DNA of 40,207 nt from Enterobacteria phage CUS-3. The DNA lies in the sequence record CP000711. One strand, given 5' to 3'. How positions within the stretch are numbered: position 1 is the first letter of the stretch; each line of letters starts with the position of its first letter. The position numbers are program-made. Positions 33,001 through 36,000 of the stretch are shown in pieces.

Positions 33001-36000
33001 ATTCGTTTTGGTTGGACGTGAAGGGAGACTCAATGACGGCTCCGGCCGGTCTCAGTATCCCTGAAGGAATGATAATACTCGTCGATCCTGAAGTAGAGCC
33101 GCGTAACGGGAAACTGGTAGTTGCAAAGCTCGAAGGAGAAAACGAGGCAACTTTCAAGAAGTTAGTTATTGATGCAGGCAGGAAGTTTCTAAAACCACTT
33201 AACCCACAATATCCGATGATCGAGATCAACGGAAACTGCAAAATCATCGGCGTAGTTGTCGATGCAAAACTAGCAAACCTTCCATAAGGGGGCATTCGCC
33301 CCTTTTTTTTTATTTCCTTTAAAAATCAAAGCTAAACTTAAGTTACGAAAGAAAATTTAAGTTTTCTTCAAAAATACTCTTGACCATTAATTAAAGAGAT
33401 CTTAAATTTAAGCCATCAGCAGGACGCTGGAAGCCAAACGGAAAAGATTGGCAGGCTCTTTAACATTGATGGGATTGTCCCGCCGAAATGCGGGAACCAA
33501 AGAGTAGTTGGCTTTGGGGTGACGTGAAGTGCAGCTGCACGACGGCAACCGGAAGATAAGCACCCGGCGCGTCACCGCCAAAGTCAATTCCATAGGCGTT
33601 ATGCAGCCGCCACCATATTCAAGAAAGCTGCACAAGAGGTAGGAGGATTTATGTGAATACTTACATTCAATTGAGAGATTAATTAAATAGAACTGATCGA
33701 GCAGAGTCCATAAAGGCTCATAAATGCTCTTCCATCCCCGTCTAATTGGCGGGGAAGGAAACCACTTTGTAATAAAAAAATTCCAAAGTTGTTTCATCGG
33801 AGGTCAACATGACAGTAGTCATTACATATCTGGCTGACGATAACGCCAGAAATCGCCGCAGAGCACGCAGACAGGCTCAACGTGAACAGGCAATGCAAGA
33901 ACAGCGACTGGCGCGAAAGATTGCGCTAAAGCTCTCTGGTTGCGTCAGAGCAGACAAAGCAGCATCACTCGGAAGCCTTCGCTGCAAGAAGGCAGAAGAA
34001 GTCGAGAGTAAACAGAATCGTATTTACTACCGCAAGCCACGCAGTGAAATGGGGGTGACTTGTGTTGGTCGCCAGAAAATGAAATTAGGAAGCAAACCAC
34101 TTATTTGAGGTGATATATGGAAGAAGAATTTGAAGAGTTCGAAGAGCATCCGCAGGATGTGATGGAACAATACCAGGACTATCCTTATGACTACGACTAT
34201 TGATAAGAATCAATGGTGTGGACAATTCAAGCGATGCAATGGATGCAAGCTGCAATCGGAATGTATGGTTAAGCCTGAAGAAATGTTTCCTGTAATGGAA
34301 GATGGGAAATATGTCGATAAATGGGCAATACGAACGACGGCAATGATTGCCAGAGAACTTAGTAAACAGAATAACAAGGCTGCCTGATGGTGGCCTTTAT
34401 TTTTGTCCGTAAATAATTTCATGCTTATTACAATCAAGGTGATATATGGAAGAACAAGCAAACAAGATTCTCGTAGAACTTCTGCAAAAAGCCAGTAATG
34501 GAATAGACGCGGCTGTTTCATTTAGCCAGGCACAGATTCCTGATGTTGTTCGTCAGTTGCTAACATGGAGTTTTGTCCATAGCGCACTTTTCCAAGTGGC
34601 TGGGTTGTTGCTTTTAATTGCAGCAATGAAACTTCCTAGTTTTGCAAGAACGGCAAGAAATAATGGCGAGAGATGGACGTCTTTAGATGGATGTCCAAAC
34701 GATAGATATTTTATATCTTCGTTTTATTACGATATATGCACTGTATTTGCTCCTATATTTGGCTCAATTATTGGCGTTTTAATTATTGCCTTCAATTTCG
34801 AATGGTTGAAGATTTGGCTTGCACCTAAGTTATTCCTAATTGAATATGCAGCATCATTGGTTAAGTAATTTCAGGCCGCATAGTCGGCCTTTATTTTTGG
34901 CATAAACAACAGAATAAACACTGCACTGTGTATTCATTCCAACGAGTGAATACACGGAGCAATGTCGCTCGTAACTAAACAGGAGCCGACTTGTTCTGAT
35001 TGTTGGAAATCTTCTTTGCCCTCCAGTGTGAGGGCAATTTTTTTTGATGGAGGATATATGAGTGAAGTAACAGATTTAGTTGTTATTGAAAAAGCAAATG
35101 CAATGACTGTATTTCAGTCTGCCGACCAGATTGAAGAAATTCTCCAAAAGGTTGAACGTGAAGTTATGTCATTTGTGCCTGATATCACAACGGCAAAGGG
35201 CAGAAAGGAGATCGCTTCTCTGGCGTATAAAGTTGCGCAGACGAAAACATATCTCGATGGTCTTGGCAAAGACCTTGTTGCTGAACTGAAGGAAATTCCA
35301 AAGCTAATTGATGCCAACCGCAAGACAGTGCGCGATCGCCTTGATGAACTGAAAGCCAAGGCGCGCCAGCCTCTTACTGATTATGAGGAAGAATCAGGCG
35401 CGGATTAAAGCCGAAGAAGAAGCTAAGGCAGCAGCTGAAGCTCTCGCAAAGCAAATTGAGTCTGACCATGAAATAGCGATTTTGATGGATCGCGAATTTG
35501 ACCGCCAAAGAGAAGAGGCAAGACTCAAAGCGGAGCAGGAAAAGCGAGAGCATGAAGAACGATTAAAAAGAGAAGCTGAAGAGAAAGCCAGAGCAGAAGC
35601 CGAAGCAAAGGCAAAAGCCGAAATTGAAGCAGCAGCAAGGCGAGAAGCAGAAGCTAAGGCCGCAGCGGAACGTGCAGAGCGTGAACGCATTGAAGCCGAG
35701 CAACGAGCACAGCGCGAAGCAAAAGAGGCAGCAGAACGAGCTGAAAGAGAAAAGCAGGCAGCAATTGAAGCAGAACGCAGAAAAGCACAGGAGGAGGCTG
35801 AACGAATCCGTCGCGAGGCTGAAGCAAAAGAGCAAGCCAGAATAGCAGAAGAAAAAAGAATCAAGGACGAAGAAGAGCGTAGAGCAAAGGATAAAGCTCA
35901 CCGGAAAGAAGTAAATAACAAAATACTTGCTGACCTTATCAAGGTTGGCGCATCAGAAGATGTTGCTAAAAATATCATAACAGCCATCGTAAAAGGCGAA

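What the first reader, a model, noticed from the sequence alone, without database searches (positions are those of the whole stretch)
34108..34900. Two PL-operon moron cassettes sharing duplicated flanking sequence
Downstream of N there are two small cassettes. The first (34117..34387) holds a 28-aa acidic peptide and a 66-aa Cys protein; the second (34446..34868) holds a 140-aa two-TM membrane protein. Both begin with the same motif GGTGATATATGGAAGAA spanning RBS and start codon, and both end with GGCCTTTATTTTT. This suggests module duplication or exchange by recombination at conserved boundary sequences. The membrane protein sits where lambdoid phages often carry superinfection-exclusion genes.
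Basis: seen in the sequence. Interest (0 to 1): 0.55.

Follow-up and report, generated by a model that had tools for sequence, protein, structure and literature searches.

The report
Swappable gene cassettes downstream of phage N
Two small gene units after the N gene of an E. coli UTI89 prophage (the known anti-restriction pair orf28-ral and a membrane protein of unknown function) share start and end sequences that flank many unrelated genes at this position in related phages, a clear example of the known way these phages shuffle genes.

Summary
AGGTGATATATGGAAGAA occurs exactly twice (34108, 34437), each spanning a ribosome-binding site and start codon. GGCCTTTATTTTTG occurs exactly twice (34392, 34886), each forming the 3' arm and T-tract of a terminator hairpin.

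Unit 1 is lambda's orf28 plus ral (anti-restriction). Unit 2 is a homologue of Sf6 gene 34, a two-transmembrane protein of unknown function.

Relative to lambda, phage 21 and HK140, unit 2 is a 492-bp indel flanked by a ~29-bp imperfect repeat of the ral terminator. In other phages gene 34 sits exactly where orf28 sits here, with identical upstream DNA up to the shared motif.

Both flanks are conserved across the population. In 78 contigs chosen only by their N protein, at least 14 different ORF types follow N, most behind the same junction GGCAGCAAACCACTTATTTGAGGTGA(G/T)ATATG. The second terminator follows about 10 unrelated ORF families.

Exchange at conserved boundaries is therefore supported. 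'Moron' in the strict sense is not, because no promoter was found. A superinfection-exclusion role is untested and looks unlikely as a prophage function.

This is a new, clear member of a known kind: the lambdoid 'boundary sequences' of Clark 2001. The annotated boundary sequence bsq4 lies immediately downstream.

The parts
33380..33408 (+). PL-like promoter (TTGACC-17-TAAATT), the only + strand promoter-like site upstream of the cassettes
   Evidence: Consensus scan. It lies between the cI terminator (33286-33305) and N. Function is inferred.
33724..33762 (+). Candidate nutL: a boxA-like TGCTCTT followed by an 8-bp hairpin with a 5-nt loop
   Evidence: Fold gives -22.7 kcal/mol, z -4.0. Inferred by analogy with lambda and phage 21 nut sites; not tested.
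33809..34108 (+). Antiterminator N, with a phage-21-type C-terminus. Its TGA stop (34106-34108) lies inside the Shine-Dalgarno sequence of orf28.
   Evidence: phrog_271, E 1e-36. 96% nucleotide identity to phage 21 over 33907-34416.
34092..34125 (+). 5' boundary, copy 1: last N codons, stop, SD, ATG and the next two codons (GCAAACCACTTATTTGAGGTGATATATGGAAGAA)
   Evidence: The same junction precedes at least 17 unrelated ORF families in lambdoid contigs. It is found in about 67 of 78 contigs chosen only by N protein.
34117..34203 (+). orf28, a 28-aa acidic peptide that overlaps ral by 17 nt exactly as in lambda
   Evidence: phrog_16060, E 7e-19. Lambda annotates orf28 at 34271-34357 and ral at 34087-34287.
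34187..34387 (+). ral, the restriction-alleviation (anti-restriction) gene
   Evidence: Pfam PF11058 Ral, E 4.3e-48, full length. phrog_1055, E 4.5e-49.
34376..34405 (+). Terminator T1: a 9-bp hairpin (AAGGCTGCC/GGTGGCCTT) plus TTTATTTTTG. It is the first terminator-like site downstream of PL, and its 3' half is repeat copy 1.
   Evidence: -16.9 kcal/mol, z -4.3. The strong form is present in all 26 gene-34-bearing loci; a weak form (-4.3) is found in lambda, 21 and HK140.
34406..34436 (+). Relic of the 3' end of a Sf6/HF4s-type N gene, carried in with gene 34
   Evidence: Local alignment to the HF4s and Sf6 N 3' ends scores 15, reached by 0 of 2000 shuffles. There is no such match to the N21 end. 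In HF4s, gene 34 directly follows that N type.
34437..34454 (+). 5' boundary, copy 2: SD, ATG and two codons (AGGTGATATATGGAAGAA)
34446..34868 (+). Sf6 gene-34-family protein: 140 aa, two predicted transmembrane helices, function unknown
   Evidence: 92% identical to Sf6 gp34. phrog_3054, E 8e-52. No Pfam, NCBIfam, PADLOC or PDB match. Hydropathy; AF2 helical hairpin.
34547..34794 (+). Allele-specific core of gene 34 (TM1, loop, TM2), flanked by gene ends that are conserved among alleles
   Evidence: The 121-aa and 149-aa alleles align at 90-98% nucleotide identity only up to 34546/34569 and from 34795/34803 onwards. Protein alignment A3: the N-terminal 45 and C-terminal 22 residues are nearly invariant, and lengths range from 120 to 161 aa.
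34873..34899 (+). Terminator T2: a 6-bp hairpin (AGGCCG/CGGCCT) plus TTTATTTTTG. It is the 3' boundary, and its 3' half is repeat copy 2.
   Evidence: The same terminator with its right flank follows about 10 unrelated ORF families.
34900..35015 (+). Conserved right flank, including Sf6 'bsq4; boundary sequence' (equivalent to window 34923-35035)
   Evidence: Sf6 annotation. 261 BLAST hits among the fetched loci; the 35 distinct full-length copies listed differ at only a few positions. Strongly structured as RNA, -54.3 kcal/mol, z -5.8.
35016..35045 (+). tL2A-like intrinsic terminator
   Evidence: Sf6 annotates the homologous site as 'terminator, homology to phage lambda; tL2A'.

Best explanation
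The window is a P22-like lambdoid prophage of E. coli UTI89, and the early-left (PL) operon runs on the + strand. Between N and the conserved boundary sequence bsq4 lies a variable array of small accessory-gene cassettes. This prophage carries two.

Cassette 1 is lambda's orf28-ral (anti-restriction). Cassette 2 is an Sf6 gp34-family two-transmembrane protein of unknown function. Each cassette has the form [N-stop / Shine-Dalgarno / ATG junction] - ORF(s) - [intrinsic terminator]. These two junctions are conserved across lambdoid phages while the ORFs between them differ, so crossovers in or next to them replace, add or remove cassettes.

The repeats seen here are the scars of stacking two cassettes. 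Gene 34 once sat directly behind a Sf6/HF4s-type N gene. It arrived with about 30 nt of that N gene's 3' end and was joined behind the ral terminator. On the right, its own terminator is homologous to the ral terminator plus the bsq4 flank. The exchange is inferred to use homologous or homeologous recombination, probably through phage recombinases such as the Erf encoded downstream, with an occasional illegitimate join.

Expression is inferred to come from PL. T1 is the first terminator-like site, so N-orf28-ral would be made first. Gene 34 and everything beyond would need N-mediated read-through of T1, T2 and tL2A.

Shown here: the anatomy, the homologies, the indel, and the population-wide reuse of both junctions. 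Inferred: the recombination mechanism, terminator function, timing of expression, and the role of gene 34.
For: - Repeats and ORFs.
- Identities: Ral and orf28; gp34.
- Source: 100% identical to UTI89 and NU14.
- Indel: window 34388-34416 and 34880-34908 both align to one lambda/21/HK140 segment, giving a 492-bp indel flanked by a ~29-bp repeat.
- Gene 34 has four upstream contexts. It follows the ral-type terminator in 25 cases. It follows the N21 3' end with the same 78 nt as upstream of orf28 here (L068, L069). It follows the lambda-type leader that is identical to lambda's orf28 leader (L065, L039, L098). It directly follows the HF4s N gene.
- Relic of the other N type upstream of gene 34: 0 of 2000 shuffles reach the score.
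- 5' junction: precedes at least 17 ORF families, all assigned to different PHROGs.
- Unbiased sample: 78 contigs chosen by N protein show at least 14 different first ORFs behind an essentially invariant junction, with 1-4 cassettes before bsq4.
- 3' terminator boundary: follows about 10 unrelated families. The ral-type terminator also ends an unrelated 83-aa ORF.
- Stacking elsewhere: in L069 a 156-aa ORF preceded by AATTATTTGAGGTGAGATATG is inserted inside bsq4.
- Terminators: folds; three + strand terminator-like sites in a row and no internal promoter.
- Recombinase: Erf is encoded at 36547-37182.
- Concept: short conserved boundary sequences as recombination sites are summarised in PMC3029335. 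Sf6 annotates bsq4 right next to T2.
Against: - The 3' 14-mer alone is within chance for a 40-kb window.
- The loci were selected by the motifs themselves. Only searches are unbiased, and they cover one N type only.
- The flanks could be conserved for function (translational coupling to N, termination) or through recent common ancestry, rather than as recombination handles.
- Insertion of gene 34 cannot be told apart from its deletion in lambda-like phages.
- No transcript, termination or recombination data were available.
- The original boundary-sequence papers (Clark 2001, Casjens 2004) were not readable here. I cannot exclude that they already describe these two junctions.
Confidence: 0.8

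Rival explanations
1. These are true morons. Each unit would be an autonomous promoter-gene-terminator insertion expressed from the repressed prophage, and the membrane protein would be a superinfection-exclusion factor protecting the lysogen.
For: - Gene 34 is present or absent between conserved flanks.
- Each unit ends in a terminator.
- It is a small two-TM protein with an allele-specific core, which would fit a specificity or arms-race factor.
- sieB occupies the neighbouring N-ral slot in HK140-like relatives.
Against: - No sigma-70-like promoter lies on the + strand between 33408 and 35200. By eye, the best candidate upstream of gene 34 is a TACAAT without a -35 element, and it would start transcription inside the SD.
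- The genes lie sense within PL, whereas sieB in relatives is on the opposite strand.
- No similarity to any PADLOC, Pfam or NCBIfam model.
- Distant homologues occur in virulent N4-like, rV5-like and Vibrio phages beside DNA-metabolism genes.
Confidence: 0.12
2. The shared motifs are coincidence or functional convergence. Two unrelated genes would independently have a strong SD (AGGTGAT), an AT-rich spacer, an ATG-GAA-GAA start and a generic GC hairpin with a T-tract, with no shared ancestry and no role in exchange.
For: - AGGTGAT is fully complementary to the 16S rRNA 3' end (established knowledge).
- The next gene start also has GGAGGATATATG.
- Exact 14-mers recur by chance about 4 times per shuffled window.
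Against: - An exact 18-mer pair is expected 0.03 times, and 0 of 100 shuffles reached two matches.
- In other phages gene 34 has upstream DNA identical to that of orf28 for more than 70 nt, ending at the motif.
- Lambda's single terminator aligns to both copies, with the left flank matching copy 1 and the right flank matching copy 2.
- The same junctions flank many unrelated ORFs.
Confidence: 0.04
3. A local tandem duplication of one cassette occurred within this genome, followed by replacement or divergence of the coding part.
For: Direct repeats at both ends have similar spacing: 329 nt between the 5' copies and 494 nt between the 3' copies.
Against: - The ORFs share no similarity and fall in different PHROGs.
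- The spacer upstream of copy 2 derives from a different N allele.
- The same two-cassette arrangement exists in Sf6, N7 and many contigs behind different N genes, so it was not formed in this prophage.
Confidence: 0.03

Closest known systems
Lambdoid 'boundary sequences' (Clark et al. 2001, HK620; annotated as bsq2-bsq7 in Sf6 by Casjens et al. 2004); the 'linker' idea of Susskind and Botstein 1978
   Same: Short sequences conserved between otherwise different lambdoid genomes, located at module borders and proposed to be the sites of homologous recombination that reassort modules (as summarised in PMC3029335). bsq4 itself lies 23 nt downstream of the second repeat.
   Different: The two junctions found here (N-stop/SD/ATG and the T1/T2 terminators) are not annotated as bsq features in the Sf6 record, and the HK620 record carries no bsq features at all. 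They delimit single small ORFs rather than large functional modules, and they are duplicated when cassettes are stacked.
Lambda orf28-ral, and the same region in phage 21, Sf6, N7 and HK140
   Same: Cassette 1 is about 96% identical in DNA. It has the same 17-nt orf28/ral overlap and the same downstream flank.
   Different: Here N abuts orf28 directly, as in phage 21. There is no intervening gene such as the sieB of HK140 or gene 36 of Sf6. The ral terminator hairpin is the strong form, whereas lambda's copy folds no better than shuffles.
Morons (Juhala et al. 2000; Hendrix)
   Same: An extra gene present in some genomes and absent in close relatives, bounded by a terminator.
   Different: No promoter of its own was detected, and it is embedded in the sense orientation in an antiterminated operon. 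Expression from the prophage is untested.
SieB (lambda, P22, HK140, HK620 hkaP) and other small membrane exclusion proteins (recalled from memory as leads only: P22 SieA, T4 Imm, HK97 gp15)
   Same: A small inner-membrane protein encoded in the N-proximal part of the PL region.
   Different: No sequence similarity. SieB is on the opposite strand. The gp34 family also occurs in virulent phages.
Integron gene cassettes (analogy only)
   Same: An array of promoterless ORFs of unrelated function, each with a conserved end element, read from one upstream promoter.
   Different: There is no integrase or attC-like site. Exchange here is inferred to be by general or phage-encoded homologous recombination at conserved flanks.

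Membership tests
Ral (Pfam PF11058; lambda restriction alleviation) | Full-length match of a ~66-aa protein to the Ral family model | tested here: met
   161 bits against a cut-off of 25, residues 1-66 of 66. phrog_1055, E 4.5e-49.
Ral (Pfam PF11058; lambda restriction alleviation) | Alleviates type I restriction and enhances modification | not testable with these tools
   Function is inferred from about 96% DNA identity to lambda ral.
Lambda orf28 | A 28-aa ORF immediately upstream of ral and overlapping it by 17 nt | tested here: met
   phrog_16060, residues 1-28 of 28. Window coordinates 34117-34203 / 34187-34387 compare with lambda 34271-34357 / 34087-34287.
Boundary sequences of lambdoid phages (Clark 2001) | A short sequence conserved among lambdoid genomes whose flanking genes differ | tested here: met
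   The 5' junction is followed by at least 17 unrelated ORF families, and at least 14 different first ORFs behind one N type. The 3' terminator follows about 10 unrelated ORF families.
Boundary sequences of lambdoid phages (Clark 2001) | Mosaic breakpoints coincide with the sequence | tested here: met
   Homology to lambda, 21 and HK140 breaks inside the terminator repeat. Upstream identity between the gene-34 and orf28 contexts ends at the shared motif.
Boundary sequences of lambdoid phages (Clark 2001) | Acts as a preferred recombination site | not testable with these tools
   Needs crosses, or a genome-wide breakpoint statistic measured against a neutral expectation.
Boundary sequences of lambdoid phages (Clark 2001) | Is one of the seven published bsq elements | tested here: not met
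   The Sf6 record annotates bsq2-7. None covers the SD junction, T1 or T2; bsq4 starts 23 nt after T2. The original papers were not readable.
Moron (Juhala 2000) | Present in some genomes and absent from close relatives between the same flanks | tested here: met
   A 492-bp indel relative to lambda, 21 and HK140.
Moron (Juhala 2000) | Own promoter | tested here: not met
   No sigma-70-like site on the + strand between 33408 and 35200. This is a consensus scan only, so weak or other-sigma promoters are not excluded.
Moron (Juhala 2000) | Own terminator | tested here: met
   T1 and T2 are hairpins followed by T-tracts. This is sequence-level evidence only.
Moron (Juhala 2000) | Expressed from the repressed prophage | not testable with these tools
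   No transcript data.
SieB / superinfection exclusion | Sequence similarity to SieB or another known exclusion or defence protein | tested here: not met
   No hit in Pfam, PHROG (function), NCBIfam, PADLOC or PDB. BFVD Foldseek returned only uncharacterised proteins.
SieB / superinfection exclusion | Inner-membrane protein | tested here: met
   Two hydrophobic 19-23-residue segments. The AF2 helical hairpin has pLDDT 80-92 over residues 41-120. This is a prediction only.
SieB / superinfection exclusion | Excludes superinfecting phage | not testable with these tools
   Requires expression and plating assays.
Intrinsic (rho-independent) terminator | A GC-rich hairpin followed by a U-tract, on the transcribed strand, after a stop codon | tested here: met
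   T1: 9 bp, -16.9 kcal/mol, z -4.3. T2: 6 bp, -9.7 kcal/mol, z -2.3. Both are followed by TTTATTTTT.

The most novel reading that the evidence does not exclude
The interval between N and bsq4 in lambdoid phages may be a dedicated accessory-gene hotspot. Promoterless single-ORF cassettes would carry portable homology arms: a relic of the N 3' end plus SD/ATG on the left and a shared terminator on the right. Phage recombinases would use these arms to swap, stack and delete cassettes, making a homologous-recombination counterpart of an integron array. The cargo would be mostly defence or counter-defence genes. Ral is the only characterised member. The gp34 family, with conserved ends and an allele-specific membrane core, would be a specificity determinant in phage-phage or phage-host conflict.
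Probability: 0.3. Interest if true: 0.65.

Novelty: new member of a known kind. Interest (0 to 1): 0.42.

Why it matters
Conserved boundary sequences are one of the two standard explanations for phage mosaicism, but they are reported to be undetectable at most mosaic junctions (PMC3029335). This locus is an unusually clean case. The breakpoint falls at or within a few bases of a start codon on one side and inside a terminator on the other, and both junctions are reused by many unrelated ORFs.

Practically, the invariant left junction (GCAGCAAACCACTTATTTGAGGTGAKATATG) and the right flank (terminator plus bsq4) can serve as anchors to harvest a large set of small, mostly uncharacterised early genes from thousands of E. 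coli, Shigella and Salmonella prophages. These genes sit beside the anti-restriction gene ral, so they are reasonable candidates for anti-defence or host-takeover functions.

For the window itself the result is mostly ordinary: a known gene pair, a hypothetical membrane protein, and the normal mosaic behaviour of lambdoid phages.

Tried and rejected
- Function of the 140-aa protein. Pfam, NCBIfam, PADLOC and a PDB profile search gave nothing. PHROG gave an unknown-function family. The AF2 model (pLDDT 72.6) searched against BFVD returned only uncharacterised proteins. I did not run further fold searches, because a two-helix membrane hairpin gives non-specific matches.
- Rfam. The only hit was a sub-threshold STnc230 match on the minus strand at 34365-34445 (27 bits against a gathering score of 50). 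The alignment is only the terminator hairpin plus A-rich sequence, so I rejected it.
- Own promoter for gene 34. The scan found none. By eye, TTGTCC-17-TATTAC scores 8 of 12 and lacks the final T of the -10 element. TACAAT at 34429-34434 has no -35 element and would start transcription inside the SD. Both rejected as unconvincing.
- A hybrid origin for lambda's ral terminator. I asked whether it arose by a simple crossover between T1 and T2, which would show that gene 34 was deleted in lambda. The differences do not fit a single crossover, and the strong T1 form also occurs without gene 34. The direction of the event stays undecided.
- My first motif scan suggested that the 18-mer precedes only orf28 and gene 34, which would have weakened the boundary idea. 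Widening the pattern to the SD junction and sampling by N protein showed that it is general.
- Literature. Searches found the general concept and Red-mediated homeologous recombination (PMC2327257, which only uses a delta-orf28-ral strain). Nothing was found on these junctions or on gp34.
- Covariation test of the bsq4 RNA fold. The sequences are too similar to have any power.
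Full report
**What is at the coordinates**

The window is 100% identical to a prophage of E. coli UTI89 and NU14. The immunity region reads cI (32637-33287, +), a terminator, a PL-like promoter (33380-33408) and N (33809-34108, phrog_271). The early-left operon therefore runs on the + strand.

- 34117-34203, 28 aa.
- 34187-34387, 66 aa.
- 34446-34868, 140 aa.

The 66-aa protein is Ral, matching Pfam PF11058 over its full length at E 4e-48. The 28-aa ORF is lambda's orf28 (phrog_16060). It overlaps ral by the same 17 nt as in lambda.

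The 140-aa protein is 92% identical to Sf6 gene 34 protein and belongs to phrog_3054, of unknown function. It has two hydrophobic segments.

**The repeats**

AGGTGATATATGGAAGAA is exact at 34108 and 34437, and 21 nt match with one mismatch. Shuffles give 0.01-0.03 such events.

GGCCTTTATTTTTG is exact at 34392 and 34886. As a bare 14-mer it is within chance, since shuffles give about 4.4 exact pairs per window. However, both copies form the 3' arm and T-tract of terminator-like hairpins placed directly after the stop codons (-16.9 and -9.7 kcal/mol).

A third terminator at 35016-35037 corresponds to the site Sf6 annotates as tL2A.

**Comparison with named phages**

Sf6 and N7 have the same ral then gene 34 order. 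Lambda, phage 21 and HK140 have orf28-ral but no gene 34. Window 34092-34416 and 34880-35057 both align to them, and the two alignments overlap on a single 29-nt segment of the lambda locus.

Gene 34 is therefore a 492-bp indel flanked by an imperfect direct repeat, which is the ral terminator's 3' half and tail. I cannot tell insertion from deletion. The strong form of the ral hairpin is present in all 26 gene-34-bearing loci. It also occurs in about 19 loci without gene 34, while lambda, 21 and HK140 carry a weak form.

**The 5' motif is a real exchange point**

Among IMG/VR contigs, gene 34 occurs in four upstream contexts:
- Behind the ral-type terminator, as here.
- Directly behind a phage-21-type N gene, with the same upstream DNA that precedes orf28 in this window (L068, L069).
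- Behind the lambda-type leader, which is identical to the leader of lambda's orf28 (L065, L039, L098).
- Directly behind a Sf6/HF4s-type N gene (phage HF4s).

In the second and third contexts, identity with the orf28 context runs up to the shared motif and then stops. The 31 nt between T1 and the second motif in the window (34406-34436) align to the 3' end of the Sf6/HF4s-type N gene. No shuffle out of 2000 reached that score, and there is no such match to the resident N. Gene 34 thus brought a relic of another N gene with it.

**Generality of the 5' junction**

The wider junction TTATTTGAGGTGA(G/T)ATATG precedes at least 17 ORF families of different length and different PHROG. Only Ral has a known function. 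One 207-aa family matches Pfam Nmad5.

Those loci were chosen by the motif, so I drew a second sample by N protein alone. In 78 contigs with N at least 96% identical, the first ORF after N was one of at least 14 types:

| First ORF after N | Contigs |
|---|---|
| 156-aa ORF | 25 |
| orf28 | 16 |
| 83-aa ORF | 11 |
| Nmad5 (207 aa) | 9 |
| gene 34 | 4 |
| 107-aa ORF | 3 |
| others | remainder |

About 67 of the 78 carried GGCAGCAAACCACTTATTTGAGGTGA(G/T)ATATG, with variation beginning at or just after the ATG. One to four cassettes preceded bsq4.

**Generality of the 3' boundary**

A scan for GTCGGCCTTTATTTTTGGCATAAA found about 10 unrelated families ending at this terminator. In several of them the TAG stop lies inside the hairpin sequence. 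The ral-type terminator also ends an unrelated 83-aa ORF that shares ral's last codons...NKAA*.

Stacked arrays carry repeated flanks elsewhere too. In L069 a 156-aa ORF preceded by AATTATTTGAGGTGAGATATG sits inside bsq4 between GCACTG repeats. In Sf6, orf28 is preceded by a relic of the N21 3' end even though gene 36 lies upstream.

**Mechanism**

Shown here: this part of the PL operon is a variable array of promoterless cassettes, each bounded by an N-stop/SD/ATG junction and a terminator, and both junctions are shared across the population.

Inferred:
- Exchange occurs by homologous or homeologous recombination at these junctions, plausibly through phage recombinases (Erf is at 36547-37182), with occasional illegitimate joins that leave N relics.
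- Expression comes from PL. A candidate nutL lies at 33724-33762. T1 is the first terminator-like site after PL, so N-orf28-ral would be transcribed first, and gene 34 and later genes only after N-mediated read-through.
- The junction may also be held constant by function, because the N stop codon lies inside the SD of the next gene, which suggests translational coupling.

**The membrane protein**

The family has no Pfam, NCBIfam, PADLOC or PDB relative, and structure search was uninformative.

Its alleles of 120-161 aa share a nearly invariant N-terminal 45 residues and C-terminal 22 residues. The DNA of those gene ends is 90-98% identical between alleles. The TM1-loop-TM2 core is not alignable between alleles. 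The gene is itself mosaic.

Distant homologues (27-40% identity) occur in virulent N4-like, rV5-like and Vibrio phages, next to RNA polymerase, nuclease and ATPase genes. Together with the lack of a promoter and the sense orientation in PL, this argues against a prophage-expressed exclusion gene. SieB in relatives is on the opposite strand.

My best guess is a non-essential early lytic inner-membrane factor. I give a superinfection-exclusion or defence role about 0.2-0.25.

**Relation to what is known**

The idea that short conserved boundary sequences mediate module exchange is established for lambdoid phages. It is cited as Susskind and Botstein, and Clark et al., in PMC3029335, which also notes that such sequences cannot be found at most mosaic junctions.

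Sf6's record annotates bsq4 at the position equivalent to window 34923-35035, 23 nt beyond T2. It does not annotate the SD junction or the two terminators. The HK620 record carries no bsq features. I could not read the two original papers.

I therefore class this as a new, very clean member of a known kind. It is not a new mechanism, and 'moron' does not apply in the strict sense.

**Limits**

- The evidence is entirely comparative and sequence-based.
- Most related loci share 90-98% identity in the flanks, so recent ancestry and selection cannot be separated.
- Three of the four locus sets were motif-selected.
- Terminator and promoter calls are consensus or energy predictions.

Noticed in passing
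window 34900-35050 (+): The bsq4 region is strongly structured as RNA: -54.3 kcal/mol against -32.4 for shuffles, z -5.8. It has a 14-bp hairpin and a long-range stem, and it ends at the tL2A-like terminator. It gave 261 BLAST hits among the fetched loci, and the listed full-length copies differ at only a few positions. A rare variant (GCTCCG in L029 and L199) turns a mismatch and a wobble into Watson-Crick pairs. It may be a functional RNA rather than only a recombination linker.
   Followed up: partly
window 2235-2372 (- strand), ORF down to 1589: There is a perfect heptamer tandem repeat, (AAGACTC)x19 on the minus strand, directly after an ATG at 2372. With 19 copies the ORF stops after 49 aa. 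With 18 or 21 copies it reads through to a 258/265-aa hexapeptide-repeat acetyltransferase-like protein ending at 1589. This looks like a slipped-strand phase-variable gene, currently OFF, downstream of the 981-aa ORF at 2526-5471 (-), probably the tailspike.
   Followed up: yes
window 35058-36027 (+), insertion at 35394: The homologue of Sf6 gene 33 (called phi80 Agt-like in the HF4s record) is split into 116-aa and 214-aa ORFs by one extra T at 35394 relative to Sf6 and N7. The DNA is otherwise 98.6% identical, so this is probably a pseudogene. RefSeq calls the second half 'TolA'.
   Followed up: yes
window 1-16 and 40192-40207: The 16-nt direct repeat TTGCAGGTTCGATTCC sits at both ends of the window. 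It is probably the att core, and GGTTCGATTCC resembles a tRNA T-arm. ARAGORN finds no complete tRNA in the window.
   Followed up: partly
window 31120-31150 and 31213-31243: A 31-nt exact direct repeat, spaced 93 nt apart, lies inside the 315-aa ORF at 30724-31671 (-). It resembles the iterons of an origin inside a replication gene.
   Followed up: no
window 34112, 34441, 35053 (+): GATATATG occurs four times in the window, all within 34112-35053 on the + strand. Three copies are at the starts of consecutive genes (orf28, gene 34 and the gene-33 homologue), so the style of translation-initiation region is shared beyond the two cassettes.
   Followed up: partly
L069 2724-3533 (IMGVR_UViG_2778261692_000003): Here the N gene is itself mosaic. 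A 21-type N-terminal part is fused to a different C-terminus, followed by a 148-aa ORF and then an orphan copy of the last ~55 codons of N21 leading into gene 34. This shows that breakpoints also fall inside N.
   Followed up: no
L018, L067, L106 and similar loci: Several relatives carry an internally deleted ral, with only a 14-23-aa C-terminal remnant in frame, while keeping orf28 and the ral terminator.
   Followed up: no
L003 1774-1812 (lambda) compared with window 34366-34406: Lambda's copy of the ral terminator has two G-to-A changes and folds no better than shuffled sequence (-4.3 kcal/mol), whereas this window's copy folds at -16.9 kcal/mol. Termination after ral may therefore differ between these phages.
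   Followed up: partly
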